Of a DNA stretch of 61,990 nucleotides, positions 38,768 to 61,990 are shown one piece after another. The first letter of the stretch is position 1, and the number at the start of each line of letters is the position of its first letter. This DNA comes from a virus. The notes beneath the pieces were generated by a model. The model did no database searches. It was not told the origin of the DNA and was given only the letters and a program-made list of their open reading frames with translations. The position numbers were made by a program, and so were the translations under genes. Where the stretch lies: UHGV virus genome UHGV-0106586, one strand, 5' to 3'.

Positions 38768-38768
38768 T

Positions 38769-40459: not shown

Positions 40460-40460
40460 T

Positions 40461-41360: not shown

Positions 41361-41364
41361 AACA

Positions 41365-41392: not shown

Positions 41393-41396
41393 AACT

Positions 41397-41962: not shown

Positions 41963-42041
41963 TTAATCACCTCATCAGCCAAGATGGTGAGAATACCCAT
42001 AAAGAATATTAACACCATCTTAACAATCAGTCAACAAGGGA

Positions 42042-44387
42042 TTAAGCAGTTCTTACCCAAGCCATTAACTTGTAGAACTGGTTAGTAACACTAAATGCTG
42101 AACCAGAACCTGTACCACCAGTGTTACCGCTAACTGTGTGGCTATGAGCACCAATACCTACTGAGTGAGCATGTCCCCCAGCAGATGCAGCAGAACCACT
42201 TACAGAGTGAGTGTGAACACCATCACTTTCTGTACAACCAACGTGCGTTTGAGCAGAGTTTGATGAAGCAACACGACCAGATGGTACGTTAGCGTTATCA
42301 CCTTGTGAGATTCTATGTGCGTGCCCACCACCAGAGTTAGCAGTACCACTTACAGAGTGGGTGTGAGCACCAGTGTTGTTAGTGTTCTTTGTACCATAAT
42401 CAAAAGATGAAGTGGTAGCAGAGAAACTATGGGTATGTGATGGTAAGTTACCAACAGCTAACGTCACAGAATCTGAACCACCAGTTGTAGCAACATCTGA
42501 ACCGTTTGCTGCTGCGATTCTGATAGTTCTACCAATACCATTGTTCAGGTACGTCCAAGTTAACCCAGGAAGTGCTGTATTAGGGTCAACATTACTATTA
42601 AACCACGTTACAATACCTACTGGGTAGATTTTATTCAGGTCTGTAGAGTCACTAATTGCTGTTGCAATCTTCTGGTCAGTCTCTGCTTTAGTATATGCAC
42701 CAATATCTGAAGGAGATGGTTTAAATGCCGTTGAATACAACTGCGCCTCTCCAACATATGCTCCATCTGCTCCATAAGCATATGTGAAGACATCAAGACC
42801 TTTGGACCCGTATGTAAAACCAATACCTCTGGCATGAGCAATACCAGCAGCATGTGCTACATGGATGGCTAAATCTTTCAGACCCTGCTCAATACCGTTA
42901 TTTCTTACAAACCCTGAATAATCTTTGTTGAATGATGCTGAGTCATCCAATCTATTAGTTGTCCTTGTCATTAAAGATTGGTTTAACAGTTTTGTTTTTA
43001 AGAAATATCTAGCATCCAAGTTAGACCAATCAGAAGGTTGAACTTGACCAGTGATTCTTACTGTTTTGTTCAGTAAGAAGTCATCCTTCATGTAAATGGT
43101 AGTAGCAGTCCTGTCATTGTGGATAGTGAACCTTTCTGGGTTGCTTGGTTCCCCATTACCAATATACCACCTTCTAACACCATCAGCATTAAAACCAGCA
43201 AAGTATAACCCATTGTCTTGTGCAGTATTCCTTAGTTGTAACAATAAGCCATTTTGATTAATAATCTGTGCAGACCTGAAATTGTTTACATCACTCAGTT
43301 TAGCAAGATTACTCAAAGTTCCTGCTGGAATATATCTAGAGTCAATGTTAGTCCAATCAGAAGGTTGTACTTGACCATCAATTTGAACTGTTTTGTTCAT
43401 GGCAATAGTGTTACCTAGTGAGACTTGTGTTTTTGTTAGGTAGTTATAGATTTTTAAAATGTTCTCATCACCGTCATTACCAATGTACCACTTATAATTC
43501 CCATCTGACTTTCTTGCTCGAATATATAAAGAGGGAGCAGTGTCCACATTTTGCAGAGTGATGGCTTCAGCATTCTTCTTAGCGATAAAATTAGCGAAAA
43601 TGTTAGTACCAGTAAAAGTATTATTAGCGGTTAACTGTGCAAATCTCTGATTAGCCACTGTCTGAGTGAAGTATCTAGCATCTAAGTTAGCCCAATCAGA
43701 AGGCTGAACTTGACCAGTAATCTGGATAGATTTGTTCACAGAAATTAGGTTATCCAGAAGAGCTAAATACGCACCGGATTTGACATTTTTGATAACAAGA
43801 TTATCTGCACCTCTATTATCATTACCTAGATACCACCTGTTAGTGCCATCTACATCTTGACCACGAATATATAGCGGCATTCCTTGTGTAATGTTCTTAA
43901 CAATAAGAGCTTCATTATCAGAGAGGATAGCTTGAGTACCTCTAAATGTGTTATTTACAGCTAATCTTGCATATCTTGCATCATTCTCTTCATTAGTTCT
44001 CATCCCAAGTTCATTAGGGCTTGGCTTATTCAGAGTATGATAAACAGTTGCCGACCTTGAAGCATCTGCAATAGTTAGTTTAAGGCCATTTGCGTTAATT
44101 TTAAAAGTCTTTAAAACATCCCCAATATTAATCTCAGAAGAGCCTGTTGGGTCAAACACTACCTTACCACCATAAAGTAACTTAACAATCCCTAAGTCAC
44201 CTGTCATAGTACTACCAGCAATCTGAACAAATCTTTCAAGTTTAAAAGATGCTAAGAAATCTCGATAGGTCATTCGACGGTCTTCATCACCCAGCATTTC
44301 AGGTCTCTTTTTAACTCTGACATGAAGAAGGTCGTCTGAACGGATTGTGTCGATTGAGTTTAATTCACTCAACTTGTAATCTGCCAT
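42042..44387 (-). CDS. tail fibre protein with tandem ~100-aa internal repeats and His-x-His-rich C-terminal region
   Basis: Repeated WY(I/L)GN and GQVQPSDW-N-D-RYF modules; C-terminal HTHS/HAHR/HSHT motifs; ends ...AWVRTA. Confidence 0.7.
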   Translation of the reverse strand: MADYKLSELNSIDTIRSDDLLHVRVKKRPEMLGDEDRRMTYRDFLASFKLERFVQIAGSTMTGDLGIVKLLYGGKVVFDPTGSSEINIGDVLKTFKINANGLKLTIADASRSATVYHTLNKPSPNELGMRTNEENDARYARLAVNNTFRGTQAILSDNEALIVKNITQGMPLYIRGQDVDGTNRWYLGNDNRGADNLVIKNVKSGAYLALLDNLISVNKSIQITGQVQPSDWANLDARYFTQTVANQRFAQLTANNTFTGTNIFANFIAKKNAEAITLQNVDTAPSLYIRARKSDGNYKWYIGNDGDENILKIYNYLTKTQVSLGNTIAMNKTVQIDGQVQPSDWTNIDSRYIPAGTLSNLAKLSDVNNFRSAQIINQNGLLLQLRNTAQDNGLYFAGFNADGVRRWYIGNGEPSNPERFTIHNDRTATTIYMKDDFLLNKTVRITGQVQPSDWSNLDARYFLKTKLLNQSLMTRTTNRLDDSASFNKDYSGFVRNNGIEQGLKDLAIHVAHAAGIAHARGIGFTYGSKGLDVFTYAYGADGAYVGEAQLYSTAFKPSPSDIGAYTKAETDQKIATAISDSTDLNKIYPVGIVTWFNSNVDPNTALPGLTWTYLNNGIGRTIRIAAANGSDVATTGGSDSVTLAVGNLPSHTHSFSATTSSFDYGTKNTNNTGAHTHSVSGTANSGGGHAHRISQGDNANVPSGRVASSNSAQTHVGCTESDGVHTHSVSGSAASAGGHAHSVGIGAHSHTVSGNTGGTGSGSAFSVTNQFYKLMAWVRTA

Positions 44388-44433
44388 TATAAATTTTCCT
44401 CTTAAAAGGGGCTATAAAGCCCCTGTAAAGAAA

Positions 44434-45621
44434 TTAAGCTGTTCTCTGCCATACATACAGCACGAAGGATGGCTGTTCAATGTTGAAAGCTTGCCCACCA
44501 CCAACACTGTTCGTGTTTCCACTATGCGTATGCTCAGAAGAAGAAACTGTCACAGTACCATTGTGCGTATGTGAACCAATACCAACTGTGTGACTGTGAG
44601 CACCAATACCCACCGTATGGTTGTGGTCACCAGTTGTGTTAGTGGTAACACTGAAAGAGTGGGTGTGCTCACCAGCGACTTCACAGACAGCATCTGCTGA
44701 GTACCATGATTGGTCATTCCTTGTAGACCAAACCATTGCAGGTCTTTCCGATAGACCACCACCTGCTTCATAGGTCAATCTGTGGTTGTGAGCACCAGCA
44801 GCACTTGTTGACCCACTGCCAACGTGATTATGGTTACCAGTTGTGTTGGTGGTCTTTGTCCCATAGTCAAAAGAGTTGGTAGTCTTAGTCCCATAATCAA
44901 AAGCTGAAATTGACACAGTTGCATTATGAGTGTGACCACCACCACTAAGAGACACAGAGTGAGAGTGTTGAGGCATGTTATTAACTGACAAAGTGACAGT
45001 CGAAGCACCAAATACAGAACCTGCTGGCCTTGTATCAGAGTCATAACCAACCAATGCCCTACCTTTTGAAACCAACTCCCAAGTACCTCCACAAATTAAG
45101 TATGTAGAAGGGTTTGCAGAGTTCATAGAAAGATGGATAGTACCTACTGGATAAGAAGCCTGAACAGCCTTGTACAAGTTATTTACTGCTCTTGCTGTAG
45201 CATACTTATCTGCATCTTCATTATACAGGTTAGATGTTGTCCAGTTCTGAACATTACTTAAACCAACCTGTGCCTTAGTTGTATTGTGTGGGTTACTCTT
45301 GTCCTTGATATGTTGTTGGACAAGATTATTAACCTCTTCTGAAGACATAATCTGTAGATTTGCTCTTGCCTCAGCTACATTAACAATATCTGATAAGTTA
45401 TTTGCAGCAACTAACTGAAGAGCATTAATAACATTATCTAAACCAATCTGTGTCTTAGTAACACCATGAGGGTTATTTCTTAGGCTTGAGTGTGGAGCAA
45501 GTAATTGCTCAAGAGTACACCTCTTATCCTCAATACCCTGCTTAAGATGGAAGATATCACTAAGGTCAATTGGTAAGGCTGCTTGAGGCAAGGCACTAAT
45601 TTGAATTTCACCTACTGCCAT
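44434..45621 (-). CDS. second tail fibre / receptor-binding protein with fibre repeats and His-x-His-rich C-terminus
   Basis: NPHGVTKTQIGLDNV and NPHNTTKAQVGLSNV fibre-repeat motifs; YPVGTIHL... collar-like region; HxH motifs; ends ...VWQRTA. Confidence 0.7.
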   Translation of the reverse strand: MAVGEIQISALPQAALPIDLSDIFHLKQGIEDKRCTLEQLLAPHSSLRNNPHGVTKTQIGLDNVINALQLVAANNLSDIVNVAEARANLQIMSSEEVNNLVQQHIKDKSNPHNTTKAQVGLSNVQNWTTSNLYNEDADKYATARAVNNLYKAVQASYPVGTIHLSMNSANPSTYLICGGTWELVSKGRALVGYDSDTRPAGSVFGASTVTLSVNNMPQHSHSVSLSGGGHTHNATVSISAFDYGTKTTNSFDYGTKTTNTTGNHNHVGSGSTSAAGAHNHRLTYEAGGGLSERPAMVWSTRNDQSWYSADAVCEVAGEHTHSFSVTTNTTGDHNHTVGIGAHSHTVGIGSHTHNGTVTVSSSEHTHSGNTNSVGGGQAFNIEQPSFVLYVWQRTA

Positions 45622-45623
45622 TA

Positions 45624-51445
<5,822 letters not shown>

Positions 51446-51486
51446 TCATTTTTAACCAAGCCTTTGATATATAAGTATTTTCTCTG

Positions 51487-51556
51487 TTAAGCGTGAGCTA
51501 CGTAAAAAATAATTTTTGGTGGGTATATCTGTTCAGAAGATTTCACGTAGCATTCG
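51487..51556 (-). promoter_or_regulatory. conserved ~70-bp element upstream of gene 50615..51406 (copy 1 of 2)
   Basis: Shares blocks ttaagcgtg, tacgtaaa, gtgggtat, atttcacgtagca with 53631-53700. Confidence 0.4.
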
Positions 51557-51563
51557 ACTATTA

Positions 51564-53612
51564 TCAATCATCTTCTGGGAATGATGAACTTAATAGCGTA
51601 GCTTCTGCGTATTGGTCGTAGATATTACTGCTAAAGGTCATAAAGCTGGTTTCATCTGGTTTAATGGCAACTTCACCACCAAGTGAAACTTTCACAGGCT
51701 CCTGAATACGTTTGCTCAAAGCACTAATTTCATCTCTCAGGCTTTGGATATCCGTATTCGTTAATGCCGCATCTTGTCTCATGGTGATTAATTCTGGATG
51801 CTGGAAGTTAGCAAGATTCATAGCTGCACTATTAAACCAACCTTTCACATCGTCCATTGTAAATACTGGCTTAAGTCCAGACTCTTTAGCCAGCTCTGGT
51901 AATTTAGCTTGTGCTTCCATTCGTTCAGGTGTAGAGGCTAATCTTTCATAACCTGCATAGATAGCACTACCAGCTAATAGCATATTCCCAAGATTAAACC
52001 TTGATGGTTTCCCGTTCTTTCTATTCACGTTATCCGCTGTAGTATCAGCGACCTGACCTAATCTTGTGATAGCAGTCATAAGCCCGTAAATACTTCTGGT
52101 TACACCAACAACTTTATTTACAGCAATAACACCAGCCAAGACTTTTAAACTATTAATCAAGCCAGAACCTAAAGCATCAACAACTTTCTTTTGTTCATCG
52201 GTTAAACCACGATAAGCCAATGTCACCTCATCAAAGAACGCCCTTACCCTGTAACTAATATCAGTCAGGTTATCGACACCGTGTGACATAGAAGTCATGA
52301 GATTACCAAGACTTTCACCTAATGTTTTACCACTCCCACCAAGACTATTTAAAAGCGTTGTTAAGCTTCTTGTGAAATCTTGAAGACCATTTTCAGAACC
52401 TCTGAAGATATCCGTTAGTGAGTTGTTCCAAGTATTCTTTAAGTTCCCTAACATCGTCTGCGTAGAGTCCTGAATAGCTTTCCAGCCACCTCTGGAATTA
52501 ATCTGTGAACCAAGTTCTTTAGCAAACTTAGGGAGTGCATCAGAGGCTTTAACATCACCATTTTTCATCTTATCGAAAAGCTGTTTTTCAGTCAGACCTA
52601 AAGCCTTTGCAAATGCCTGAGTAGCACCCGGTAAAGCTTCAGATAGTTGCCCCTTAAGCTCTTCAGCCATCACCTGACCCTTAGAAGCCATCTGCGATAC
52701 TGCGGTTAATGCTCTTTGAATCTGCTCATCTGAACGACCCATTAAACGGGCATATCCAGTTAAGTTTTTAAATAATTCCTCTGAGCCTTCAAGACCCATC
52801 GTATTTTTTGCAGATGCACCAAATGAAGCAAACTGTGCTTGTGTTTCGGTTGTGTCCATACCAGTAATTTGAGTTAAATCTTGAATGAACTTTTTGACCT
52901 GTGTACTTTGGTCACCGAATACGAAATCAATACTTCTTTCCGATGATGCACGTTGAAGGCCAACTTCCATAATCTTCTGATAAGCGGATAGTACAGCCTG
53001 AAAGCTGATAAATGCACCTGCTGTTTTAACTGCTGCTGAACTCAAACTATCAAGACTATTAGCTGCTCTGTCACCGTTAATGCTGGTGGATGTATGACCT
53101 TTAGCTTTAGCAATTGCTTCTCTGACTGAAGCATTTAACTGAGCCAGCTTCTCATTGAATTTTGAATTATCCATCTGACCAGCTTTAGCAGATAGCCCGT
53201 AAAACTGAGATTTGATGTATTTCTGCAAAACAGGGTCAAAGCCCTTTAACTTGCTCATATTCGCTGAGTAAGCTGCTGTGATTGCTCTGTTTCCGCTAAT
53301 TCGTGGCTGTCTTGGTTGTTTTGGAGGATTAATAGCGTCATTAACCTGACTTGTGAAACGGAAAGCTTTTGTGCTTCTTGCTCTCTGTTCAATCTTGTCA
53401 AAAGCCTTATTAAACTTCCTTTCAAGTTGCCCTAAAGAACTTGTCAAATTACTATCAAGCTGTTTTGTATTAATCCTGAAACCTTTATTTAGGTTCTTTT
53501 CAATTCTTTGTGCTGACTGCAAAGCTGCCTTTTCAACTCTTTGCAAGCCTTTAACAACGTTTTCACTGAAGCCTAATTCAACGATAAAACTATCAACTGT
53601 AAATTTGCTCAT
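51564..53612 (-). CDS. tail tape measure protein
   Basis: 682 aa, alpha-helical low-complexity composition, TMP-like core QVMAEELKGQLSEALPGA, position upstream of baseplate genes. Confidence 0.7.
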   Translation of the reverse strand: MSKFTVDSFIVELGFSENVVKGLQRVEKAALQSAQRIEKNLNKGFRINTKQLDSNLTSSLGQLERKFNKAFDKIEQRARSTKAFRFTSQVNDAINPPKQPRQPRISGNRAITAAYSANMSKLKGFDPVLQKYIKSQFYGLSAKAGQMDNSKFNEKLAQLNASVREAIAKAKGHTSTSINGDRAANSLDSLSSAAVKTAGAFISFQAVLSAYQKIMEVGLQRASSERSIDFVFGDQSTQVKKFIQDLTQITGMDTTETQAQFASFGASAKNTMGLEGSEELFKNLTGYARLMGRSDEQIQRALTAVSQMASKGQVMAEELKGQLSEALPGATQAFAKALGLTEKQLFDKMKNGDVKASDALPKFAKELGSQINSRGGWKAIQDSTQTMLGNLKNTWNNSLTDIFRGSENGLQDFTRSLTTLLNSLGGSGKTLGESLGNLMTSMSHGVDNLTDISYRVRAFFDEVTLAYRGLTDEQKKVVDALGSGLINSLKVLAGVIAVNKVVGVTRSIYGLMTAITRLGQVADTTADNVNRKNGKPSRFNLGNMLLAGSAIYAGYERLASTPERMEAQAKLPELAKESGLKPVFTMDDVKGWFNSAAMNLANFQHPELITMRQDAALTNTDIQSLRDEISALSKRIQEPVKVSLGGEVAIKPDETSFMTFSSNIYDQYAEATLLSSSFPEDD

Positions 53613-53630
53613 TGTTCATATTTCACCTCT

Positions 53631-53700
53631 TTAAGCGTGTTGTACGTAAATTCTATTTTTCAGTGTGGGTATTAGCTTTACAGATTTCACGTAGCACACA
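53631..53700 (-). promoter_or_regulatory. conserved ~70-bp element upstream of the tape measure gene (copy 2 of 2)
   Basis: Same conserved blocks as 51487-51556 in the same order and spacing. Confidence 0.4.
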
Positions 53701-53770
53701 TACAAAAAAGGGAGAAACTACCGATGTCACTCGATAATCTCTCCCGTAGATTTTTACCCAACCAATCTTT

Positions 53771-53974
53771 TTACCCAACCAGATAATAATTGCCATCTTC
53801 ACCAACAATCTGACAATCACTTGGTAATTTATCAAGACACCATTTAGCGATTCTTCTGATTCTGTTATTTTGCTTAGAGGTGGATGATTTGATTCGTTTT
53901 GGTTTGTTGGGTTGTTCTTTCAGTCGTTCACTAATTGCCTTGATGAGTTCATAGCGTTCTGTTAAATCAATCAT
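53771..53974 (-). CDS. hypothetical protein (67 aa), N-terminus paralogous to the next ORF
   Basis: MIDLTERYELIK vs MNDLTERDKRIK. Confidence 0.3.
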   Translation of the reverse strand: MIDLTERYELIKAISERLKEQPNKPKRIKSSTSKQNNRIRRIAKWCLDKLPSDCQIVGEDGNYYLVG

Positions 53975-53999
53975 TCACCACCTCCTTTTTAATTCGATT

Positions 54000-54308
54000 T
54001 TAATCTAAGTAGTGTATACACTCGACACCGCGTTCATTCTTTTGAATTTCATAACGTAGTGAAAGACCAGTTTGATAATACACAGTATCAAGCTTATTTA
54101 TCTTATCCTTGAGTTCGATAAGAAGTCGCGTTAAATCATCCCGACCATCACACTTTAGTTCGGCAAGAGGCTTTTCGTCCATACGACCAATAAGATATTC
54201 AGTGACCTCCTGAATATCACCAAGAGTCGTTTTAATTTCATTGAACCTATCTTCAAAAGGTTCCATCACCCCTTTAATTCTTTTATCACGTTCTGTTAAA
54301 TCATTCAT
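54000..54308 (-). CDS. hypothetical protein (102 aa)
   Basis: ORF in track. Confidence 0.4.
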   Translation of the reverse strand: MNDLTERDKRIKGVMEPFEDRFNEIKTTLGDIQEVTEYLIGRMDEKPLAELKCDGRDDLTRLLIELKDKINKLDTVYYQTGLSLRYEIQKNERGVECIHYLD

Positions 54309-54316
54309 TAATCACC

Positions 54317-55027
54317 TCAAATAGCCTTTGCATATTTCTGAGAAATCTTCATTAACTGCTCAATATCGGCTTGCATAGCAATCTTCTTCTGTGATTCATA
54401 TTCACTAACAAGTTCTTTCATAGCCTGAAGCTCTCTTGAGAGATACAACTTAACATTTTCAAGTTGCTTGTTACGTGATGCCAAGATGTTCTGTCTAGCA
54501 AGTTCACAGAGTTCTTCATCGCTCTTATTAGTCATATAAATAAATTGACCAGCACCCCTTGAAGCTTTAACCATCTTCACAATTCGATATCCGTCAGGAA
54601 GATTATTAATCACGTCTGGGATATTCTCAGGAAAAGTACCAAAACCATCATTATCTTCGTATTGGTAATAGACAAATGGTTTCTGTGACAATTCATCCTG
54701 AATCTCAAATTCTGACGGCTCAATAGCTGATTGCATCAGGGTAACTTTGCTGTAAGCGTCATCAAGTTTAATACGCTGTGCTTTTAACTGTGGGTAATAT
54801 TCACGCTCAAGATTAAATAGTGCTTCACTTTTGCAGATATCTGGCATTTCTTGAGGCTCAGGAGACACAAAGGTAATTTCCTTTGGTGACATCTTTAACG
54901 ATTGCTCAAGCTTAATTCTTTCATCGTGTTCTTTACGCTGAATAGTGATAGCTGGATGTTCAGTCTGTGGCGACCAGTCACCGAAGCTATCAACCTTTCT
55001 GCCATTAATGTAAATATCATTTGTCAT
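54317..55027 (-). CDS. hypothetical protein (236 aa)
   Basis: ORF with ATG and GAGGAAAT RBS. Confidence 0.45.
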   Translation of the reverse strand: MTNDIYINGRKVDSFGDWSPQTEHPAITIQRKEHDERIKLEQSLKMSPKEITFVSPEPQEMPDICKSEALFNLEREYYPQLKAQRIKLDDAYSKVTLMQSAIEPSEFEIQDELSQKPFVYYQYEDNDGFGTFPENIPDVINNLPDGYRIVKMVKASRGAGQFIYMTNKSDEELCELARQNILASRNKQLENVKLYLSRELQAMKELVSEYESQKKIAMQADIEQLMKISQKYAKAI

Positions 55028-55553
55028 TATAATTTCCTCTAAGTGTGATTATTTCTTAATAGAGCACCTTCAACGCCAATACACTTAGAAGATGACTTAA
55101 CGATTTATTAAAGATGCTCTATAAAGAAAAGCCCTAAACATAGGTTCATCCTCATCTGTGAAGGGCTTTGGAGGTTTGCTTTAACGTTAACGAAGTTTCA
55201 GGAAAAAGTTCTGTTTGAAAACTCTTAAAGAAACGCCCTAACTCATGATTAGGGCAAAGCTGTAAAGGGTTCAATGAATGAATGATTAAGCACTTTTTGA
55301 GATAGCCTATCTAGTGTGGGCTAAATAGGCCATGACGAAAAGCATTGCACCTTTCCAACTCAGAATATAGTTATCATCGATGTAGAGACGATTAATATTT
55401 TAATTCAAGGAGAATTGCTCTCCCTATATATACAATTATGTCATGCTCAAGGTTATTTGTCAACAGCTTTTTAACAGATTGGTAACATTTATACTTTAAT
55501 AGATGCACCTGCAATCATACCAATCAATACAAAACAGATAATCACCAATTCCA

Positions 55554-55877
55554 TTAATGCACCACCTTCGAATCCGTCACCAAAATATTGTCAGCGTACA
55601 AAATTGCTATAGCTGCCTTGAGATATCTTTCAGGGCTAATACTGTATTTGTTCGTTTGCTCGATAACCAATCTTTTCATGTTGCTGTCTATAATTGGTAG
55701 CATCATTCGAGGCTCGTTAAACTCCACCGACTGAATAAAGTCTTCAATTACTTCTGAGTTATCAGCCATTAGCCTTAACAGCCTGTCAAAGTCAATGCTA
55801 ACACCTACATCAGTGAAAGCCTGAATCATCATAGCGGTGTCGTTATCAACGAAAATCTGTAATGGGTAATTGTTCAT
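55554..55877 (-). CDS. hypothetical protein (107 aa from ATG 55877)
   Basis: ATG with AAAGGAGA RBS. Confidence 0.45.
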   Translation of the reverse strand: MNNYPLQIFVDNDTAMMIQAFTDVGVSIDFDRLLRLMADNSEVIEDFIQSVEFNEPRMMLPIIDSNMKRLVIEQTNKYSISPERYLKAAIAILYADNILVTDSKVVH

Positions 55878-56032
55878 TTTTAAAATCTCCTTTTTACCAG
55901 ACCTCCTCAATCGCTCTGTAACGAGCTAAACAGTCTTTTTCAGGGGTAGCCTGTACAGTGGTATTACCCACCCTAAAATAAGATAGTTTTTTGCGTTAGA
56001 ATGCGATTGAGAGCGCCTGAGAAGCTATTTTT

Positions 56033-56320
56033 CTAATTTCTCTTAAAGTCTCGGACTTGCATAAGATTTTTTGGTCTGGTATCGGCTCTGTTACCATTTC
56101 GATGGATAATTTGCTTGTTGGATTGATAGCCATGATAAAGGAACCAGACAACATATTTCACGTAGAAAGTATATCGGCCTATATTAAATGTTTTGTTGCC
56201 GTAGTCGTCGGTATTTATCGTGACTGACTCTCCATCAGACCAGCACAGGGAATCACTGGATTCATCATAGATAAGGTGTTCTGTAAAATATCGTCTAACA
56301 TCTTCATGCCAAGGTTTCAT
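56033..56320 (-). CDS. truncated/degenerate HNH-like protein (N-terminal HNH region only, no AP2 domain)
   Basis: LIYDESSDSLCW...FYVKYVVWFLYHGYQ...IIHRNGNRADTRPKNL parallels the N-terminal halves of the intact HNH-AP2 proteins but with substituted catalytic positions. Confidence 0.4.
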   Translation of the reverse strand: MKPWHEDVRRYFTEHLIYDESSDSLCWSDGESVTINTDDYGNKTFNIGRYTFYVKYVVWFLYHGYQSNKQIIHRNGNRADTRPKNLMQVRDFKRN

Positions 56321-56532
56321 AAAACCTCCTCACCCCAATAACCTAATTCAATCTTGTGACGCTCAAACCATTCCGGTTTAACTGCTGTTTTCAGTACTTC
56401 ATTTGGGCCAATGGCTTTAATGAAAATATCTTTTGAGTTATGGATGTCACCGAATCCGTTTCCCTTAATCAGGAGGTCGGAGATGTGGCGAATCATTTTA
56501 TCCGTGTGGTATTCAAAGGTAACGCATAGCAT
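56317..56532 (-). CDS. hypothetical protein (71 aa)
   Basis: ORF in track. Confidence 0.35.
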   Translation of the reverse strand: MLCVTFEYHTDKMIRHISDLLIKGNGFGDIHNSKDIFIKAIGPNEVLKTAVKPEWFERHKIELGYWGEEVL

Positions 56533-56810
56533 TAAACCTCCATCGCTAACTTGTGAATCTTAAGACTCAATAGACGGGCAATATCAATCTTAAAGCCGTT
56601 AAGTGCCTTCAAAGTATCTAAAGCGTCCTGAGTAATTCGGATGTGCTTACGACCTTTAGAGACTGGATATTTAAGTAAATCCGACTCAGTGACCTCTTTA
56701 GCAATTGCAAGCTGCATTACAGTTTGATGAGGCAAGTTAGTAGCTCGTTTAATTCTGGTAAGCTCGTTAAAAGCTTCCTCTGAAATACGGGTTAATGTGT
56801 GTTTATTCAT
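56532..56810 (-). CDS. hypothetical protein (92 aa)
   Basis: ORF in track. Confidence 0.4.
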   Translation of the reverse strand: MNKHTLTRISEEAFNELTRIKRATNLPHQTVMQLAIAKEVTESDLLKYPVSKGRKHIRITQDALDTLKALNGFKIDIARLLSLKIHKLAMEV

Positions 56811-57368
56811 TTAAAATTCCTCTGTAACTAAATACGGGTCAAACTCGAAATCTGGTTGCTCGTTTTCCATTGGCTCAATATTCCCAACGGCAATATGATG
56901 TTCAACAATACCAATTAGCTTTGCACACATTACAGCAAGCAAAGCGCAATATTTATCGCTTGGTAATTCATGGCTAAGTCTGGTTGCTTGTCTTTGAAGA
57001 TAATTTGTCACGCTGGCTGCGTTAATTTCGTCAAGATTCTTTAGAAGATAAAATAGTTTTTTGTTGTATTTCGGGTGGCCTTCACTTCTACAGAATCCAA
57101 TGAAAATATCATCAAGCTTACTTGGTAGTTGCTCGTAAGAATCAAAGTTAGCCAGATAATTTTTAATAGTGTTCTGGGTGCTCTTTCTGGTTGGCATAAA
57201 TCTGTCTCGTGGCGTAATGCTACGAATTACTTCGTCAATGCCTTTGCGTTCTTTCTTGGTGAGCTTGGGTAGTTCGTAGCTGGTTGGGTTGTTTGTGTAA
57301 GCGTAGGAGTTGTGCTTGTTACGTTGTCTCGATGCCTGAAGCATCGCTCTAAATTCTGCGTCTCTCAT
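56811..57368 (-). CDS. hypothetical protein (185 aa)
   Basis: ORF in track; first gene of a minus-strand operon. Confidence 0.45.
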   Translation of the reverse strand: MRDAEFRAMLQASRQRNKHNSYAYTNNPTSYELPKLTKKERKGIDEVIRSITPRDRFMPTRKSTQNTIKNYLANFDSYEQLPSKLDDIFIGFCRSEGHPKYNKKLFYLLKNLDEINAASVTNYLQRQATRLSHELPSDKYCALLAVMCAKLIGIVEHHIAVGNIEPMENEQPDFEFDPYLVTEEF

Positions 57369-57419
57369 TCATGTTCCGACCCTCATAAGATGTTATTATT
57401 CTGTTAACTTATATATACA

Positions 57420-57448
57420 ATACTAGCATTTTCAAAGACTAATGTCAA
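57420..57448 (-). promoter_or_regulatory. sigma70-like promoter for minus-strand operon 57368..55554 (-35 TTGACA, 17-bp spacer, -10 TAGTAT)
   Basis: Read from reverse complement of 57420-57448. Confidence 0.35.
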
Positions 57449-57473
57449 GTATTTTTTAACATTTTATTAACAT

Positions 57474-57486
57474 CTGTGGTATAATG
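57474..57486 (+). promoter_or_regulatory. extended -10 promoter-like element (TGGTATAAT), plus strand
   Basis: TGnTATAAT seen at 57478-57486; no good -35. Confidence 0.35.
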
Positions 57487-57612
57487 GTTCTATGGGGAGA
57501 GTAAAATATAAAGGCGTGGCTATGAGGTTTATTCGATAGGGGTTGGTACAAGCCCAACTAACCGAATCAACTATGTATGTCACATGGTATTGCATTGCAC
57601 ACAGGAAATTTA

Positions 57613-57789
57613 ATGGTAAATCTCCCTCCTGAACTGGGGTCACCTGATGTATGGGCTGGTGGAGGTATCGGGCTGATTGCAGGTCTGTTACTCCGCTACG
57701 TCCTCGTCAGAGTGCTTGTTGTCTTTAAACTGTTCGGTCGTACATGGACGCTTGACCTTAAGGATAATGACCACACGGACCCCCGTTAA
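57613..57789 (+). CDS. small single-pass membrane protein candidate (58 aa), more GC-rich than surroundings
   Basis: AGGAAA RBS then ATG; GGGIGLIAGLLLRYVLVRVLVVF hydrophobic helix. Confidence 0.3.
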   Translation: MVNLPPELGSPDVWAGGGIGLIAGLLLRYVLVRVLVVFKLFGRTWTLDLKDNDHTDPR

Positions 57790-58840
57790 ACCCCCTTCAA
57801 AACCCCTATACCATCTCGTACAGGGGTATCTTTAGCATTTTGTGCTATCTATTAAAAAATAGCTTGACAGAACCAGAAAGCTGTATCTATCAAGTATTCA
57901 CCTCTCTGACAGTGATTTCTAAAAGTTCTTATTTTTCAATAAGTTGTAATTAGCCATATATAGTAGCTGTTCAGCACCTTCACAGATGACTTCAAGCCTT
58001 CTTAGCTATCCACTAAGCGGGAGAAGAGCGATAACCCCAGAGAGGGAAGCTCCCTTCTAATTGGTATTGTTATGAGGATGCTTCATCCGAATCATCTACC
58101 AATCCCTAAACCGACTTTCTTAACCAGCCCTTTACGTTATTCGTTCACAGTGTTGATAAGTGGTTTTGCCCTCTGTTTCTGTTATCATCGGGCTTACCTT
58201 ATCAGGGCTTTGAAATGCCCTGTAACTCCCCTCTTAACGGGAGAGAAAGAACATAGTGACCCCAAGCGAAGCGCCCCTCTAAAAAGATTTTTTAGCTACT
58301 TTGTTTAAAAGCACATCAAACGATACATTTTATTGATTTAGGTCAAAGACAAAAGCATTGACAAAATGGTAAGATTGTTCACATGACCTTACTTAACAGA
58401 TTCTTAAGAGCTTTGAAACAGCCTGTCTAACAAGGTCACTACCTCTGGTCTTATCGTTCCCTCTCTTCTTGGTAGTTCTGTTAAGTATTTTTCAGTTTTA
58501 TTCTTAAGATAATTGTTAAGATAGAACCTACCTTCGGTTTCATGGTTCTCTTCCTCCCGTTAAACAATTCTTCCTAACTATCTACATAATCACTACCAAG
58601 AATCTTACAAGGTAATATCCAGACCTCTTATAGTTGACCTGATACAGAAACATTACAGACATGCTCTCTAGGTTCTGTGTAGTTCCCTTGTTGGGAATAG
58701 ATGCTCCTACAATAAGAGCATCATTAATCTATATACTCCTCTTCCGAGAACTTAATGTTTTTTTAATGTATATCAATCATTATCCAAAATATGATATGAA
58801 GTTTCTTGGTAGTATTACATCAACAAGTTAATTGAAATAA

Positions 58841-59284
58841 GGAATATTATTTAGAAATGGTGTAAAAATCGAGGGTTCACTTGTAAATCCTAAACCAAGA
58901 CAATACCTGGCTTTTGGTTGTCGGATTAATGGTAAGTTCAGAATACTTAAGGTGCATCAGGTTATTTTCTATCTATATCATGGTAAACAAGCTAAACTAT
59001 AGATTGACCATATAGATGGTGACCCGCTAAATAATGCTATTAGCAATCTTCGCGAGGTTACCAAAGAGCAGAATCAGGCAAACATGATACCCAGAAAGAA
59101 AACAAAATCAGGTTACAAGGGGGTACACCCAAGAGTGGATAACAAGGGGTTCTGGGCTACAATACGCTGTAATGGAAAATCTCATTATCTGGGTCAGTTT
59201 AATACAGCAGAAGAAGCTGCAAAAGCCTATGATGCTGCATCACTGGAATTGCATGGTGAATATGGACACAGGAATTTTAGCTGA
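58841..59284 (+). pseudogene. HNH-AP2 homing endonuclease pseudogene: no start codon for the N-terminal part, in-frame TAG at 59000-59002, AP2-domain remnant retained as ORF 59084..59284
   Basis: Hand translation ...VHQVIFYLYHGKQAKL*IDHIDGDPLNNAISNLRE...SGYKGVHPRVDNKGFWATIRCNGKSHYLGQFNTAEEAAKAY parallels the intact copy at 34184..34687. Confidence 0.6.
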
Positions 59285-60237
59285 TAGTTAATAAAGACCT
59301 GACATAAACTTGTCGATAGGTCTGATTAAAGTTTATACAGTGATTTTTCATCTTCTAATTTTTTTATAAAAATCGTAGTAGCCTCTCTACATTCCCCTTC
59401 ACCGATAATCTTCAAAAATATCTACACAGTTGATTCGGTAGAATCTACCTCATGATTGATGGCTGTTAAGTACCCCAGATTCACGATATAGCACCCCCTT
59501 TGCAAAAGCAGTTAAAATATCTATAACCAATTATTGACTTTCTTTATAGCATCTGTTAACTCCACATCAAGAAACCTTTATCACACTTCAAAGCATCTAT
59601 CAAGAAGATTTCACCTATCAATAGATGTAACATTTTATAGTTCTGTGAAGTCCTATCCAGTTTTCTCTGTAACAGACACAAACTTCTGTGACCTTATGTA
59701 TCAATGACTTACAAGACATGCTCTCAAGGTGCTGTATAGCCTCTTATCTTCAAATACACAAAACCCTTATAAATCAGTACTGATACGTATACAGTTCGTT
59801 TTTAACATAATAGCTGTTTTACGCACTAATCGTGTTCTACATGAAATCTGTATAGATATTAAGGTGTCTGTAAGTGATTTTTTAAGAGGAGCTACGAAGA
59901 ACTATAACCATCACCTCCTAACTTTCACATGGGAAACTGTTAAGCAGCTTGATAGTCACTTTGAGGGAATATTGATAGTGACCAACTGCATAGATAGCGT
60001 TATATAGTCCTGTATATAGCACTTTTCTAGGAGTCGAGAGAGGGACGACTAACACGATACAGTTTACCCTGAAAAGAGACTTCACAGATTCTTTATATAT
60101 TTCAATAAGTTATGCTAAAAAGGGACTATATCAATACTGCATAGAATCTGTGTAAAACTGCTTAGATAGTGCATAAATACACCGTTGAATTGCATAATCA
60201 TTCACTGATATTGTCCTGTTATTAACAGGTATGTTCT

Positions 60238-60316
60238 CATAGTTGATTCGGATGTTCTAGGAATCATCCTCATAGTTGATTCGGATGTTCTAGGAATCAT
60301 CCTCATAGTTGATTTA
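60238..60316. repeat. 33-bp tandem direct repeat (catagttgattcggatgttctaggaatcatcct), 2.4 copies, with internal dyad symmetry; ~85 bp upstream of the recombinase-like gene
   Basis: Copies at 60238-60270, 60271-60303 and a partial copy at 60304-60316; related sequence at 59429-59464. Confidence 0.7.
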
Positions 60317-60399
60317 GACCTTGATGATTTTTATTAGACACGTTTAAATACACTACCTAAAGCGATACAATCTAGGTATCAGTTTTGAGGTGGTAAACA

Positions 60400-61659
60400 A
60401 TGAAACGTGTCATTTCATACATTCGTTTCTCATCAGAGAAGCAAGCTAAAGGCGACTCACTCCGCAGACAATCTAAGATGGTCACTGATTGGCTTAAGGC
60501 TCATCCTGAGTACTACCTTGACCAAGATTTATCTTTTCGTGATTTAGGTGTGAGTGGATTCACTGGTAAGCACTTGAAAGGTGGCTTAGGTGACTTCTTA
60601 ACCGCTATCGAGAAAGGGCTTGTTAAAGCTGGTATCAAAGTTTCTAAACGTTGTCCTGCATGGCTTAAGCTTAATGATGACCGTAAAAGCTTCTCTGTGA
60701 TACCTGAGAAAGTGGAGACTGTGAAGAGGTGCTTTCAGCTACGGTTAGAGGGTAAGTCTATCTGGGAGATTGTCAGAACTCTTAATGCTGAAGGTCACCA
60801 GACGCTTAACCAGTACAAAGCAGGTAAGTTTGGTCAAACATCTGTTCAAGACCTTTTGAAGAATCGCTCTGTAATTGGTTACTTCACACCTAAAGGCTGT
60901 GAGGAGATTGCAGGTTATTACCCGTCTGTAATTGATGAAACAACATTCTACAAAGTTCAACAACTATCACATTCTCGTTACGGTAGAAAACCTGCTTCAG
61001 ATAAACCATTGAGTGTGAATCTCTTTAAAGGTGTTATCCGTTGTTCTGAATGTGGTCATGCTTTGATTATCACAGGCTTTAGCGATACAAGAAACGGGAT
61101 TTATCGTTGTCCTCTTCGTAATGAAAACCGTTGTAGTGCTAAAGGACTTTCACGTAAGCAAACCGATGGTACATTGCTTGCCCTGCTATCTCGTCTTGAC
61201 CGATTTGATAGCGATATGACGAATACCATAGACACACTGAAGCTACACCGTGAACACATCTCAAGCAATATTGAAAAGCTGGTACAGCTATCACTTGAAA
61301 TTGAAGACTTGTCCGCTATTACCAGCAAACTAAGACAACTAAAGAATGAGCTATCACAAGTTGATGCGGATATCGAGAAGGAGACACAACGCCTTAAATC
61401 TATTGATGTGGGTTGTTTGTCTGATTGTGACTTGACTACAAAGGCGGGAAGGATTGAAGCACAACTGATAATCAAAAGTGCTGTTAAAGAGGTCGTTTTA
61501 AATACTGCTAAACGTCGCTGTAAAGTAACTTTTCACAACGGTAAAGCAATCACCTTACCAATAACAGAAAACCCCTCAGACAACGTTACAGAGGCTATAC
61601 AGTCGCTTTCTGAAGTCACTGAGAGGGGTTTAATAGATGTTGATGAGGTTATCATATAG
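60400..61659 (+). CDS. serine-recombinase-like protein (resolvase-type N-terminal motifs, recombinase domain, zinc ribbon) with apparently truncated catalytic domain
   Basis: YIRFSSEKQ and DLGVSG motifs; recombinase-domain-like middle; CSECGH...YRCPLRNENRC zinc ribbon; no DRLxR-type motif found by eye. Confidence 0.6.
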   Translation: MKRVISYIRFSSEKQAKGDSLRRQSKMVTDWLKAHPEYYLDQDLSFRDLGVSGFTGKHLKGGLGDFLTAIEKGLVKAGIKVSKRCPAWLKLNDDRKSFSVIPEKVETVKRCFQLRLEGKSIWEIVRTLNAEGHQTLNQYKAGKFGQTSVQDLLKNRSVIGYFTPKGCEEIAGYYPSVIDETTFYKVQQLSHSRYGRKPASDKPLSVNLFKGVIRCSECGHALIITGFSDTRNGIYRCPLRNENRCSAKGLSRKQTDGTLLALLSRLDRFDSDMTNTIDTLKLHREHISSNIEKLVQLSLEIEDLSAITSKLRQLKNELSQVDADIEKETQRLKSIDVGCLSDCDLTTKAGRIEAQLIIKSAVKEVVLNTAKRRCKVTFHNGKAITLPITENPSDNVTEAIQSLSEVTERGLIDVDEVII

Positions 61660-61673
61660 TTGAGATTCTATCG

Positions 61674-61990
61674 TCAGTAGCGCTTGTTAGGATTCACAGA
61701 AAGCTTCTTCAAAGTACTACCTGTACCAGCATTATTAAGCACCTTTGAAGCTTGCTCATTAGCGGCATCTGAGAAGGTGCTTTTTCCGTTCTCAACTTTG
61801 ACACTTCTACCACAATTGATACGGGCTTGAAGTTGCTCATTAGTAAGTTCACTCGTAGAGCGATTATATAGCTCCTGACACATCAACATACCGTTACCTA
61901 AGCTTGTTGTAGTGTTCCCTGTATTCTTCTTAGAAGTAGCACCACCGTCATTTGTAGTAGAAGTCTTTCCAGTGGCTGCTGAAATATCAG
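61674..61990 (-). CDS. partial CDS (3' portion; 5' end lies beyond the window) paralogous to tail gene 50615..51406
   Basis: Open frame runs to the window edge; 61891-61990 is ~88% identical to 50850-50949 (last ~60 nt identical); C-terminus ...LSVNPNKRY vs ...[11 protein letters not shown]. Confidence 0.5.

What the first reader, a model, noticed from the sequence alone, without database searches (positions are those of the whole stretch)
55028..55553. 523-bp non-coding spacer with multiple stem-loops inside a minus-strand gene block
Several inverted repeats occur here (agagcacc...gatgctct; aaagccct...agggcttt; gccctaa...ttagggc; ggagaattgctctcc). This unusually long structured spacer between co-directional genes could encode a small RNA or a processing/attenuation site rather than just a terminator-promoter pair.
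Basis: seen in the sequence. Interest (0 to 1): 0.35.

Follow-up and report, generated by a model that had tools for sequence, protein, structure and literature searches.

The report
Terminator-gated RNA leader of tail operon
The "spacer" is a conserved promoter followed by a ~400-nt highly folded RNA leader with two built-in stop signals and a masked ribosome site; it probably keeps the tail genes of a small mobile island (here joined to a Felix-O1-type phage genome) switched off until something overrides it.

Summary
All four inverted repeats exist, and the predicted transcript folds far better than shuffles (z = -7.5). The first 66 nt are not non-coding: they hold a conserved 21/25-codon hydrophobic ORF.

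On the minus strand the order is promoter first, terminators second:
- a near-consensus sigma-70 promoter (TTGACA-17-TGnCATAAT);
- a 5' hairpin (P1);
- an invariant 20-mer (P2);
- a covarying hairpin (P3);
- tandem intrinsic terminators T1 and T2;
- a 21-27 bp stem (P4) whose loop is complementary to the Shine-Dalgarno region of the next gene.

About 100 homologous leaders from E. coli chromosomes, IMG/VR and metagenomes keep this architecture, with compensatory changes. Four P4/anti-SD alleles each match their own SD. No Rfam family matches.

The spacer lies in an ~11 kb integrative island (serine recombinase, divergent tape-measure protein, phage-like baseplate gene). The spacer sequence is found in 462 of 5,426 complete E. 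coli genomes. In this window the island is joined to Felixounavirus DNA.

Best reading: a default-off, antitermination-dependent leader for the island's tail-gene operon, giving ~200 and ~300 nt terminated RNAs. Transcription, the trigger and any trans role are untested.

The parts
55489..55554 (-). Small ORF of 21 codons (MELVIICFVLIGMIAGASIKV). Its ATG overlaps the stop of the upstream 108-aa gene (TAATG). It is the last gene of the island's early operon.
   Evidence: Read directly from the sequence. Intact as a 21- or 25-codon hydrophobic ORF in 66/66 relatives, with two allele families.
55471..55487 (-). Operator-like direct repeat TGTTACCAATCTGTTAA (TGTTA twice, 12 bp apart), immediately upstream of the -35 hexamer.
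   Evidence: Nearly invariant in 39 promoter variants. The same motif sits at the same position upstream of the island's early promoter, and again inverted just downstream of that promoter's start.
55435..55463 (-). Sigma-70 promoter: TTGACA, 17 bp, TG-n-CATAAT. Predicted start at about 55427-55429.
   Evidence: Scan gives 11/12 match with TG. GCTGTTGACAAA is one of only two invariant runs of 8 nt or more in the protein-anchored set. A second -10 allele (TGaGATGAT) occurs in 14 relatives. Not tested experimentally.
55406..55426 (-). P1: a 5'-terminal stem-loop of the predicted transcript (AGGGAGAG-CAAUU-CUCCUU).
   Evidence: Kept in 40 sequence variants. In RNAalifold, two of its pairs switch between G-C and A-U in 4 and 11 of 24 sequences.
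55336..55355 (-). P2: invariant 20-mer GAAAGGUGCAAUGCUUUUCG. It can form a 6-7 bp hairpin with a GCAAU loop, and it also contains an SD-like AAGGUG followed by an AUG.
   Evidence: Invariant in 10/10 relatives found through a protein rather than through the 20-mer itself. Unique in the window at up to 3 mismatches. Folded as its own hairpin by RNAalifold. The ORF starting at its AUG is 5-58 codons long and not conserved.
55293..55342 (-). P3: long hairpin with a 12-13 bp upper stem and a 5-7 bp base. The base competes with P2 for CUUUUC.
   Evidence: 31 sequence variants all fold, at -13 to -26 kcal/mol. On a model-fitted alignment, 95.1% of cells are paired against 39-50% when the partner is slid. 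Five pairs change on both sides. Covariation score is 0.208 against 0.123 shuffled (0/500).
55226..55256 (-). T1: intrinsic terminator, UGCCCUAAU-CAUGA-GUUAGGGCG followed by UUUCUUU. It would end an RNA of about 200 nt.
   Evidence: Terminator scan. Present in 71 of about 104 relatives in 19 variants, including a compensatory allele GCCCUC..GAGGGC. Absent in the other third.
55123..55169 (-). T2: second terminator-like hairpin, AAAGCCCUU...AGGGCUUU followed by UUUUCUUU. It would end an RNA of about 300 nt.
   Evidence: Inverted repeat I6. Present in essentially all relatives, in 35 variants with variable inner inserts and one inverted-core variant. The scan misses it because its loop exceeds 8 nt.
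55052..55129 (-). P4: a 21-bp double-stranded stem (15 bp plus 6 bp) whose 5' arm starts in the U-tract of T2, enclosing a 34-nt loop.
   Evidence: z = -4.3. All four sequence alleles (A-D) form stems of 21-27 bp.
55081..55092 (-). Anti-Shine-Dalgarno sequence UCUUCUAAGUGU, in the loop of P4.
   Evidence: Complementary to 55035-55046 (I5, 92%). The pairing is allele-specific: each loop with its own SD region gives -14 to -18 kcal/mol, against -7 to -15.6 for other alleles and -7 to -10 for shuffled loops.
55025..55046 (-). Shine-Dalgarno region ACACUUAGAGGA and the start codon (55027-55025) of the 236-aa first gene of the tail module.
53704..53745 (-). T3: strong intrinsic terminator (15-bp stem plus UUUUUUG) inside the same operon, between the 67-aa gene and the tape-measure gene.
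   Evidence: Scan. Conserved in relatives with a compensatory stem allele.
57391..57473 (-). The island's early promoter (TTGACA-17-TAGTAT, 57448-57420). It is paralogous to the leader promoter and flanked by TGTTAA-repeat motifs (57472-57456 and, inverted, 57407-57391).
   Evidence: Conserved in 31 distinct relatives.

Best explanation
What it is. The spacer is the regulatory 5' leader of the tail-gene operon of a ~11 kb integrative island. The operon reads 236-aa, 102-aa, 67-aa, tape-measure protein, baseplate protein.

How I think it works:
1. Host RNA polymerase starts at a strong sigma-70 promoter (about 55428), or reads in from the island's early operon.
2. It transcribes a 5' hairpin (P1), an invariant 20-nt element (P2) and a covarying hairpin (P3).
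3. By default it stops at two tandem intrinsic terminators, leaving RNAs of about 200 and 300 nt.
4. Any transcript that escapes folds a 21-bp stem (P4). The loop of P4 pairs with the ribosome-binding site of the first gene, so translation is masked too.
5. A third terminator (T3) sits before the tape-measure gene.
6. Expression therefore needs a terminator-overriding (processive antitermination) signal. This is most plausibly recruited at the invariant P2/P3 RNA element or at the conserved promoter, and supplied by early island proteins or by an infecting Felixounavirus.
7. The ribosome site must also be unmasked, for example by RNase III cutting P4.

Shown here: the sequence signals, their order, and their conservation and covariation.

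Inferred: that the promoter fires, that T1-T3 terminate, that read-through is regulated and by what, and that P4 is cleaved.
For: - Order and strength of signals. The promoter scores 11/12 with TG, and T1 lies downstream of it. No promoter-like site lies between T2 and the ATG in any of the 76 distinct 3' domains listed (read by eye; none reported by the scan).
- Structure. z = -7.5 for the whole leader.
- Conservation. The spacer sequence is in 462/5,426 complete E. coli genomes, always chromosomal. About 104 distinct leaders were collected.
- Covariation: P1, P3, T1 and T2.
- Allele-specific anti-SD:SD pairing.
- Strand asymmetry. Many G.U pairs, and U-tracts only on the minus strand, point to RNA rather than DNA structure.
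- In relatives found through proteins, the only invariant blocks are the -35 region and the 20-mer.
- A third conserved terminator lies inside the operon, with no sigma-70 promoter after it.
- The leader promoter shares about 72 nt of architecture, including TGTTAA repeats, with the island's early promoter. This suggests common control.
- The upstream 108-aa protein has a beta-alpha-alpha x2 pattern. Its best fold hits are chains of the F-plasmid relaxosome, consistent with a DNA-binding regulator, but the support is weak (pLDDT 60, E 0.04).
Against: - There are no expression data. Promoter and terminator calls are consensus matches only.
- No antiterminator homologue was found. Pfam, PHROGs and PADLOC return nothing relevant for the island's small proteins.
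- No boxA consensus is present, and there is no clear -10-like pause element.
- Alleles of the top of P3 are not linked to alleles of the first early protein, which argues against allele-specific protein recognition of that hairpin.
- A third of relatives lack T1, so tandem termination is not obligatory.
- T2 has a large interrupted hairpin and may terminate weakly.
- In the plain minimum-free-energy fold the SD is unpaired. The masking pairing is a pseudoknot that the folding program cannot score.
- The metagenome relatives were collected using the 20-mer itself, so its invariance among them is by construction.
Confidence: 0.55

Rival explanations
1. A free-standing small-RNA gene. The promoter-to-T1/T2 unit exists to make a stable ~200/300-nt trans-acting RNA, with a protected 5' hairpin and terminator 3' end. 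Its invariant 20-mer would be a seed that pairs with host or helper-phage mRNAs. The downstream genes would be transcribed by other means.
For: - The unit is compact: promoter, 5' hairpin, terminator.
- The 20-mer is conserved in sequence, not only in structure.
- The mosaic breakpoint in several relatives falls right after the P3/T1 region (window ~55263), so the promoter-RNA unit travels with the upstream module.
- No Rfam match, so it would be a new RNA.
Against: - No complementarity beyond chance to anything else in the 62-kb window, including 51 kb of phage genome. The best hit is a 14-mer at E 0.08.
- The 20-mer and its complement are absent from 50,697 phage records.
- This reading does not explain P4, the allele-matched anti-SD, or the lack of a promoter for the downstream operon.
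Confidence: 0.2
2. An ordinary operon boundary. T1/T2 simply end the island's early operon. The tail genes are transcribed only during infection, from helper-phage-specific promoters that a sigma-70 scan cannot see. The promoter in the spacer is incidental or only makes a short by-product.
For: - Felixounavirus late-promoter motifs are not known to me, so such promoters could escape the scan.
- A ~75-nt repeated element precedes both the tape-measure gene and the baseplate gene and could be such a signal.
- T3 shows that the genes are separated by terminators anyway.
Against: - The promoter block is one of the two most conserved stretches in the region and is paralogous to the early promoter. 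That does not fit an incidental site.
- The 300 nt of conserved, covarying structure between the promoter and T2, and the SD-masking pairing, are not needed for a plain terminator.
- The 75-nt element is absent from the phage part of the window.
Confidence: 0.15
3. P4-satellite-style RNA immunity. A processed piece of the leader pairs with repeated target sequences in the same or other island transcripts and causes premature termination, keeping the island quiescent.
For: The setting is similar: an integrative helper-dependent element, a constitutive-looking promoter, and premature termination in a leader before the functional genes. The comparison with P4 CI RNA rests on my own knowledge of that system.
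Against: - No match to the Rfam C4/CI antisense family or any other family, even at E up to 10.
- No seqA/seqB/seqC-type repeated complementary boxes in the leader or elsewhere in the island.
- The terminators here are self-sufficient hairpin plus U-tract signals.
Confidence: 0.05
4. A DNA-level element (replication origin, packaging site or recombination site) whose inverted repeats act as double-stranded or cruciform DNA.
For: It is a long AT-rich gap with several inverted repeats, and an HNH endonuclease gene lies two genes upstream.
Against: - No iterons: only one 16-nt two-copy direct repeat, which is the pair of terminator halves.
- The helices rely on G.U pairs, which would be C.A mismatches on the other strand, and U-tracts follow the stems on one strand only.
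- The recombinase gene, and hence presumably the attachment site, lies several kb away at 60400-61659.
Confidence: 0.05

Closest known systems
Lambdoid late-gene control: Q gene, PR' promoter, 6S RNA, tR' terminator
   Same: A strong sigma-70 promoter is followed directly by a ~200-nt non-coding transcript that ends at an intrinsic terminator. This sits upstream of a long operon of structural genes that contains further terminators, with a small regulator gene immediately upstream of the promoter. The comparison rests on established knowledge of lambda.
   Different: - No Q homologue was detected.
- No recognisable Q-binding element or -10-like pause signal.
- Two terminators, plus a 100-nt SD-masking domain that lambda lacks.
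- The element is an 11-kb island, not a complete phage.
N/nut and HK022 put processive antitermination (RNA elements in the nascent leader)
   Same: A short invariant RNA element (the P2 hairpin, with a GCAA-containing pentaloop) followed by a second hairpin. Both lie promoter-proximal and upstream of several terminators in one operon.
   Different: - No boxA consensus.
- The loop of P3 varies freely, and its alleles are not linked to the first early protein.
- No N-like protein identified.
- The put structure was not compared by any model. This is a resemblance, not a test.
Satellite P4 immunity leader (CI RNA / C4 antisense RNA family)
   Same: A helper-dependent integrative element that appears to keep its genes off by premature termination in a leader transcribed from a strong promoter.
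   Different: No covariance-model match. No repeated complementary boxes. The terminators here are intrinsic.
RNase III processing hairpins in phage leaders (lambda N leader, T7 R sites)
   Same: A stem of 20 bp or more lies just upstream of a ribosome-binding site. Removing it would free the SD. All four alleles keep 21-27 bp.
   Different: Cleavage was not tested. Here the loop of the stem, rather than the stem itself, masks the SD.
Phage satellites (PICI, cf-PICI, PLE, P4-like): context only
   Same: A small (~11 kb) integrative island with its own recombinase and regulators. It carries genes clearly derived from one phage group and also occurs as a circle in a metagenome.
   Different: It carries a tape-measure gene and a baseplate gene rather than capsid-size or packaging genes. 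No helper dependence has been shown. The papers searched did not describe it.

Membership tests
Intrinsic (Rho-independent) terminator | G+C-rich hairpin followed directly by a U-rich tract on the transcribed strand | tested here: met
   T1 and T3 pass the scan. T2 has a GCCCU/AGGGC stem plus UUUUCUUU but a large interrupted loop, so the scan misses it.
Intrinsic (Rho-independent) terminator | Transcripts actually end there | not testable with these tools
   Needs Term-seq, Northern blots or in vitro transcription.
Sigma-70 promoter | -35 and -10 hexamers at 17 +/- 1 bp | tested here: met
   TTGACA-17-CATAAT with TG, 11/12. Conserved in 39 variants. Promoter-like sites are as frequent in shuffles of the region (11 found against 10.9 expected), so the weight lies in the score and the conservation, not in the count.
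Any curated RNA family (Rfam 15), including C4/P4-CI antisense RNA | Covariance-model score at or above the gathering threshold | tested here: not met
   No hit in the whole window at gathering thresholds. Only chance-level hits (E of 1.2 or more) at 54900-55700.
Lambda-type Q antitermination module | A Q-family protein encoded next to the promoter | tested here: not met
   The 108-aa upstream protein and the other island proteins have no Pfam or PHROG antiterminator match. The structure model has low confidence.
Lambda-type Q antitermination module | Promoter followed by a short terminated leader upstream of late structural genes | tested here: met
Lambda-type Q antitermination module | Q-binding element and sigma-dependent promoter-proximal pause | tested here: inconclusive
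   The initially transcribed TGTATATATAG is conserved and shared with the early promoter. It lacks a clear -10-like hexamer.
N/nut antitermination | boxA consensus followed by a boxB hairpin, with an arginine-rich N protein | tested here: not met
   No boxA consensus, read by eye. The P2 hairpin is boxB-like only in size. The N-terminus of the 185-aa protein is only moderately basic and is variable.
P4-type RNA immunity | Leader RNA segment complementary to repeated boxes in the same transcript | tested here: not met
RNase III substrate | About 20 bp or more of near-continuous double-stranded RNA | tested here: met
   21-27 bp in alleles A-D. Cleavage itself cannot be tested here.
Translational masking by an anti-SD sequence | A sequence complementary to the SD that covaries with it | tested here: met
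   9-12 nt of complementarity in four alleles. Each loop is more stable with its own SD region than with those of other alleles or with shuffled loops.
Type I toxin-antitoxin | A small hydrophobic peptide gene with an overlapping antisense RNA promoter | tested here: not met
   The peptide ORF is present. No plus-strand promoter-like site lies in 55400-55600. The ORF is translationally coupled to an operon rather than standing alone.

The most novel reading that the evidence does not exclude
The invariant P2/P3 element is an RNA switch that senses infection by the helper Felixounavirus, through a phage- or island-encoded factor that loads onto the nascent leader. It would convert RNA polymerase to a terminator-resistant form. 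The island's substitute tape-measure and baseplate genes would then be made only when there is a phage tail to hijack or sabotage. That would be a new antitermination system controlling phage parasitism.
Probability: 0.2. Interest if true: 0.75.

Novelty: new variant of a known kind. Interest (0 to 1): 0.5.

Why it matters
The leader is a widespread RNA element: its sequence is in 8.5% of complete E. coli genomes and in many gut metagenome contigs. It has clear covariation, is absent from Rfam, and I found no paper that describes it.

It guards the only recognisably phage-derived genes (tape measure, baseplate) of an island that I could not find described. In this window that island is joined to a virulent Felix-O1-type phage genome through a shared baseplate gene.

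If the gate opens on infection, it gives a direct experimental handle on two questions. First, how such an island detects its phage. Second, whether its tail proteins serve hitch-hiking or defence.

Even on the most ordinary reading, the leader is a compact natural example of three stacked off-switches: tandem terminators, a masked ribosome site and a downstream terminator.

Tried and rejected
- DNA searches of the spacer and its neighbours against 50,697 phage records, in near and distant modes: no match. tblastn of the 236-aa protein: no match.
- Rfam at gathering and permissive thresholds: nothing. tRNA/tmRNA scan: none.
- Pfam, PHROGs and PADLOC on the island's small proteins: only HNH, tape measure and recombinase.
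- AlphaFold model of the 108-aa protein: pLDDT 59.7, too weak to rely on. A profile search against PDB sequences returned only chance hits. The Foldseek top hits (F-plasmid relaxosome chains, E 0.04) are suggestive only.
- Leader peptide or uORF starting at the AUG in the 20-mer: rejected as a conserved coding gene, since it is 5-58 codons long with unrelated sequences.
- Trans-target search by complementarity within the window, and for the 20-mer in phage records: nothing beyond chance.
- Linkage between P3 loop alleles and the N-terminus of the first early protein: none. The first attempt also used the wrong reading frame and was redone.
- The first MAFFT alignment of P3 put the alleles out of register. 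It was replaced by a covariance-model alignment. The first such alignment was contaminated by 44 antisense hits and was redone.
- Literature searches for the island or the RNA: no description found. yecE is known as an integration site for Stx prophages, which is unrelated (PMC8112680).

Full report
**1. The observation**

Window 55028-55553 is the gap between two minus-strand ORFs, 55554..55910 and 54317..55027. Read as minus-strand RNA, the 410 nt from the predicted start to the next start codon fold at -117.4 kcal/mol. Dinucleotide shuffles give -82.7 +/- 4.6 (z = -7.5, none of 100 as good).

One correction is needed. The upstream 66 nt (55489-55554) are a 21-codon hydrophobic ORF whose ATG overlaps the preceding stop (TAATG). 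It is intact as 21 or 25 codons in all 66 relatives where it could be read. The non-coding part is therefore about 461 nt.

**2. Where the spacer sits**

The window is a composite.
- Positions 37000-51382 match E. coli Felixounavirus genomes at 92-95% DNA identity, and the homology stops at 51382. The 270-aa baseplate-type protein is 92% identical to that of phage PHB11.
- From about 51400 to the end of the window, nothing matches any of 50,697 phage records at the DNA level. The tape-measure protein there is only about 29% identical to Felixounavirus tape-measure proteins.
- This right-hand part is instead an ~11 kb island. The spacer sequence, used as a probe for the island, occurs in 462 of 5,426 complete E. 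coli genomes, always on the chromosome.
- In NZ_CP033401 the island interrupts yecE. Its gene order is: AP2-domain protein; four small proteins including an HNH endonuclease; the 108-aa protein; the spacer; 236-, 102- and 67-aa proteins; tape measure; 'phage baseplate protein'; and an oppositely oriented serine recombinase.
- Variants of the island occur in O157:H7 and at the tonB/yciI locus.
- One metagenome contig of 11,233 nt has a 55-nt terminal overlap, which indicates a circular form.

The end of the window (61868-61990) repeats part of the baseplate gene at 50827-50949 (86% identity). Identity profiles place a switch from island-like to phage-like sequence within 51440-50848. The arrangement therefore looks like a circular island joined to the phage by homologous recombination in the baseplate gene. 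I cannot tell whether this is biological or an assembly join.

**3. Anatomy on the minus strand**

In transcript order:
- **Operator-like repeat**: TGTTACCAATCTGTTAA (55487-55471).
- **Promoter**: TTGACA-17-TG-n-CATAAT (55463-55435), 11/12 match. Predicted start at about 55428.
- **P1**: a 5' hairpin (55426-55406).
- **A variable stretch** of 60-125 nt in different relatives, sometimes with a 27-nt mini-hairpin insertion.
- **P2**: the 20-mer GAAAGGUGCAAUGCUUUUCG (55355-55336), which can form a 6-7 bp hairpin.
- **P3**: a long hairpin (55342-55293) whose base competes with P2 for CUUUUC.
- **T1** (55256-55226).
- **A hairpin** that uses the U-tract of T1.
- **T2** (55169-55123).
- **P4**: a 21-bp stem whose 5' arm begins in the U-tract of T2 (55129-55052).
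- **Anti-SD**: UCUUCUAAGUGU (55092-55081), inside the loop of P4.
- **SD region**: ACACUUAGAGGA (55046-55035), followed by the ATG at 55027.

The essential point is the order. The promoter comes first and the terminators second, and no promoter-like site lies between T2 and the gene (sequences). A further strong terminator, T3 (53745-53704), separates the 67-aa gene from the tape-measure gene, again with no sigma-70 promoter after it.

**4. Comparative evidence**

*How the relatives were collected.*
- Through the flanking proteins: IMG/VR and GTDB genomes.
- Through the 20-mer: IMG/VR and metagenomes.
- From E. coli chromosomes.

After removing one unrelated chance match (L107), this gave about 104 distinct leaders.

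*What they show.*
- **Promoter block**: nearly invariant.
- **P1**: kept in 40 variants. In RNAalifold, two of its pairs switch between G-C and A-U in 4 and 11 of 24 sequences.
- **P3**: 31 variants all fold. On a covariance-model alignment of 100 hits (49 distinct rows), 95.1% of cells pair, against 39-50% when the partner column is slid by 1-3. Five pairs change on both sides. The covariation score is 0.208 against 0.123 +/- 0.007 in shuffles (0/500). That alignment is fitted to the model, which favours the structure, but the slid control is far lower.
- **T1**: present in about two thirds of relatives, in 19 variants, including a compensatory allele GCCCUC..GAGGGC.
- **T2**: present in essentially all relatives, in 35 variants, one of them with its core inverted.
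- **T3**: conserved, with a compensatory allele.

*The 3' domain.* It exists in four alleles, A-D, with quite different sequences. Each has a 21-27 bp P4 and a loop segment exactly complementary to 9-12 nt around its own SD:
- A: UCUUCUAAGUGU / ACACUUAGAGGA
- B: CCUCUUCUAAG / CUUAGAAGAGG
- C: UUCACCUCU / AGAGGUGAA
- D: UUCACCUC / GAGGUGAA (allele D read from L134).

Each loop paired with its own SD region gives -13.6 to -18.1 kcal/mol. Pairings across alleles give -6.6 to -15.6, and shuffled loops give about -7 to -10.

*RNA versus DNA.* Many of the conserved pairs are G.U, and U-tracts follow the stems on the minus strand only. This points to RNA structure rather than DNA structure.

*The most conserved blocks.* In the ten leaders found through a protein, which are unbiased with respect to the 20-mer, the only invariant runs of 8 nt or more in the whole spacer are GCTGTTGACAAA (the -35 region) and the 20-mer.

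**5. Further regulatory context**

The leader promoter is a paralogue of the island's early promoter at 57448-57420. Both share the pattern ATGTTA-N6-TGTTAAAAA-N3/4-TTGACA-17-TG-n-(-10)-TGTATATATA. The early promoter also has an inverted copy of the TGTTAA repeat just after its start, and this layout is conserved in 31 distinct relatives. Both promoters are therefore probably controlled by one DNA-binding protein.

Two small proteins of the early operon show a beta-alpha-alpha x2 pattern by eye: the 92-aa protein, and the 108-aa protein directly upstream of the spacer. The AlphaFold model of the 108-aa protein has that topology, but at pLDDT 59.7. Its ten best Foldseek hits are chains of the F-plasmid relaxosome (E of 0.04 or more). 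I read this as a weak hint of a tandem ribbon-helix-helix regulator and nothing more. Pfam and PDB sequence searches found nothing.

**6. Mechanism**

The best-supported reading is a default-off leader.
1. RNA polymerase that starts at about 55428, or arrives from the early operon, terminates at T1/T2.
2. Transcripts that escape are translationally masked by the pairing between the P4 loop and the SD.
3. T3 guards the tape-measure gene.
4. Turning the operon on therefore needs processive read-through of at least three terminators, plus unmasking of the SD.

The invariant P2 with the adjoining P3, or the conserved promoter, is the natural loading site for a read-through factor. P4 is long enough to be an RNase III substrate, and cutting it would detach the anti-SD from the mRNA.

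All of this is inference from sequence signals. Nothing here shows transcription, termination, cleavage or a trigger. No antiterminator homologue was found, and P3 alleles are not linked to alleles of the first early protein.

**7. Rivals**

- **Trans-acting sRNA.** It remains possible, and is not exclusive with a cis role. No target complementarity beyond chance was found in the window or in phage records, and it leaves P4 and the anti-SD unexplained.
- **Plain operon boundary with phage-specific promoters downstream.** It fits poorly with the conservation of the promoter and of 300 nt of structure.
- **P4-like RNA immunity.** It fails the Rfam test and the repeated-box test.
- **DNA-level origin or pac site.** It is disfavoured by the G.U pairs, the one-strand U-tracts and the lack of iterons.
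- **Conserved leader peptide from the AUG inside the 20-mer.** It is excluded as a conserved coding gene, being 5-58 codons with unrelated sequences. Ribosome loading at that site could still matter.

**8. Comparison with known systems, and novelty**

The leader works most like the lambdoid PR'-6S-tR' late-gene gate, and more loosely like nut- or put-type leaders. It adds an SD-masking, RNase-III-like domain reminiscent of the lambda N leader. It is not a member of any of these families: no Q or N homologue, no boxA, no Rfam family.

I found no paper describing the RNA or the island. I rate it a new variant of a known kind of regulatory leader. Interest is moderate. What raises it is the setting, an undescribed island that is common in E. 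coli and is joined here to a virulent phage genome.

Noticed in passing
window 50615-61990 (junction about 51440-50848; repeat 50827-50949 / 61868-61990): The window is a Felixounavirus genome (about 93% identical to E. coli Felix-O1-like phages up to 51382) joined to an ~11 kb island. That island normally sits in the E. coli chromosome (yecE or the tonB/yciI locus) with its own serine recombinase. The join lies inside a baseplate gene whose first ~580 nt are about 93% identical between island and phage, and a second partial copy of that gene lies at the end of the window. This fits a single crossover between a circular island and the phage, or else an assembly chimera.
   Followed up: partly
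L073 (metagenome contig ERZ506742.633, 11,233 nt): The contig has a 55-nt terminal direct overlap, the usual sign of a circular assembly. The island therefore also occurs as a free circle of about 11.2 kb. About a dozen other metagenome contigs carrying it are 10.6-12.2 kb long.
   Followed up: partly
window 51564-53612 (-) and 50615-51427 (-): The island carries its own tape-measure protein (682 aa), only about 29% identical to Felixounavirus tape-measure proteins. It sits next to a baseplate gene that is about 92% identical to the phage's at the protein level. This pairing suggests tail hijacking or tail sabotage.
   Followed up: partly
window about 53696-53622 (-) and about 51552-51475 (-): A ~75-nt element occurs upstream of both the tape-measure gene and the baseplate gene: TGCTACGTGAAATCT...ATACCCAC...TTTACGTA..CACGCTTAA, with an inverted repeat GCTACGTGAAA/TTTACGTAGC. 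It is absent from the phage part of the window. One 53-nt stretch is 100% identical between the window and several relatives.
   Followed up: partly
window 53704-53745 (-): A strong intrinsic terminator (15-bp stem plus TTTTTTG) lies inside the operon, just before the tape-measure gene. It is conserved in relatives with a compensatory stem allele.
   Followed up: yes
window 57391-57485: Divergent promoters lie back to back: minus strand TTGACA-17-TAGTAT, plus strand TTAACA-18-TATAAT. They overlap TGTTAA-repeat motifs, which also occur upstream of the leader promoter. The layout looks like a genetic switch.
   Followed up: partly
L005 about 1260-1290, and after T3 in L002, L005, L014 and others: A ~27-nt mini-hairpin insertion (GAGGATAGTCTTCTATCCGAAGTCTAT and close variants) is found at TGTATAT sites in two unrelated places in different island copies: just after the leader promoter, and just after T3. 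It behaves like a tiny mobile insertion.
   Followed up: no
window 55557-55880 (-) and 56532-56810 (-): The 108-aa and 92-aa proteins each show two beta-strand/helix/helix units by eye. The AlphaFold model of the 108-aa protein (pLDDT 60) has that topology, and its best fold hits are F-plasmid relaxosome chains. They may be tandem ribbon-helix-helix DNA-binding proteins.
   Followed up: partly
window 57970-57995 (-): The sequence GAAGTCATCTGTGAAGGTGCTGAAC in the unannotated 1.6-kb region upstream of the early promoter combines two 9-10-mers of the leader's P4 domain (AAGTCATCT and TGAAGGTGCT). It is also complementary to the 5' half of T2 over 13 nt (E 0.3). Its significance is unknown.
   Followed up: no
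L107 (metagenome contig SAMEA104315424__coassemble_308): The exact 20-mer also occurs in an unrelated context as the core of a perfect terminator hairpin (CTCCCGAAAGGTGCAATGCTTTTCGGGAG plus TTTTTT). About one chance match is expected for a 20-mer in a collection of this size.
   Followed up: no
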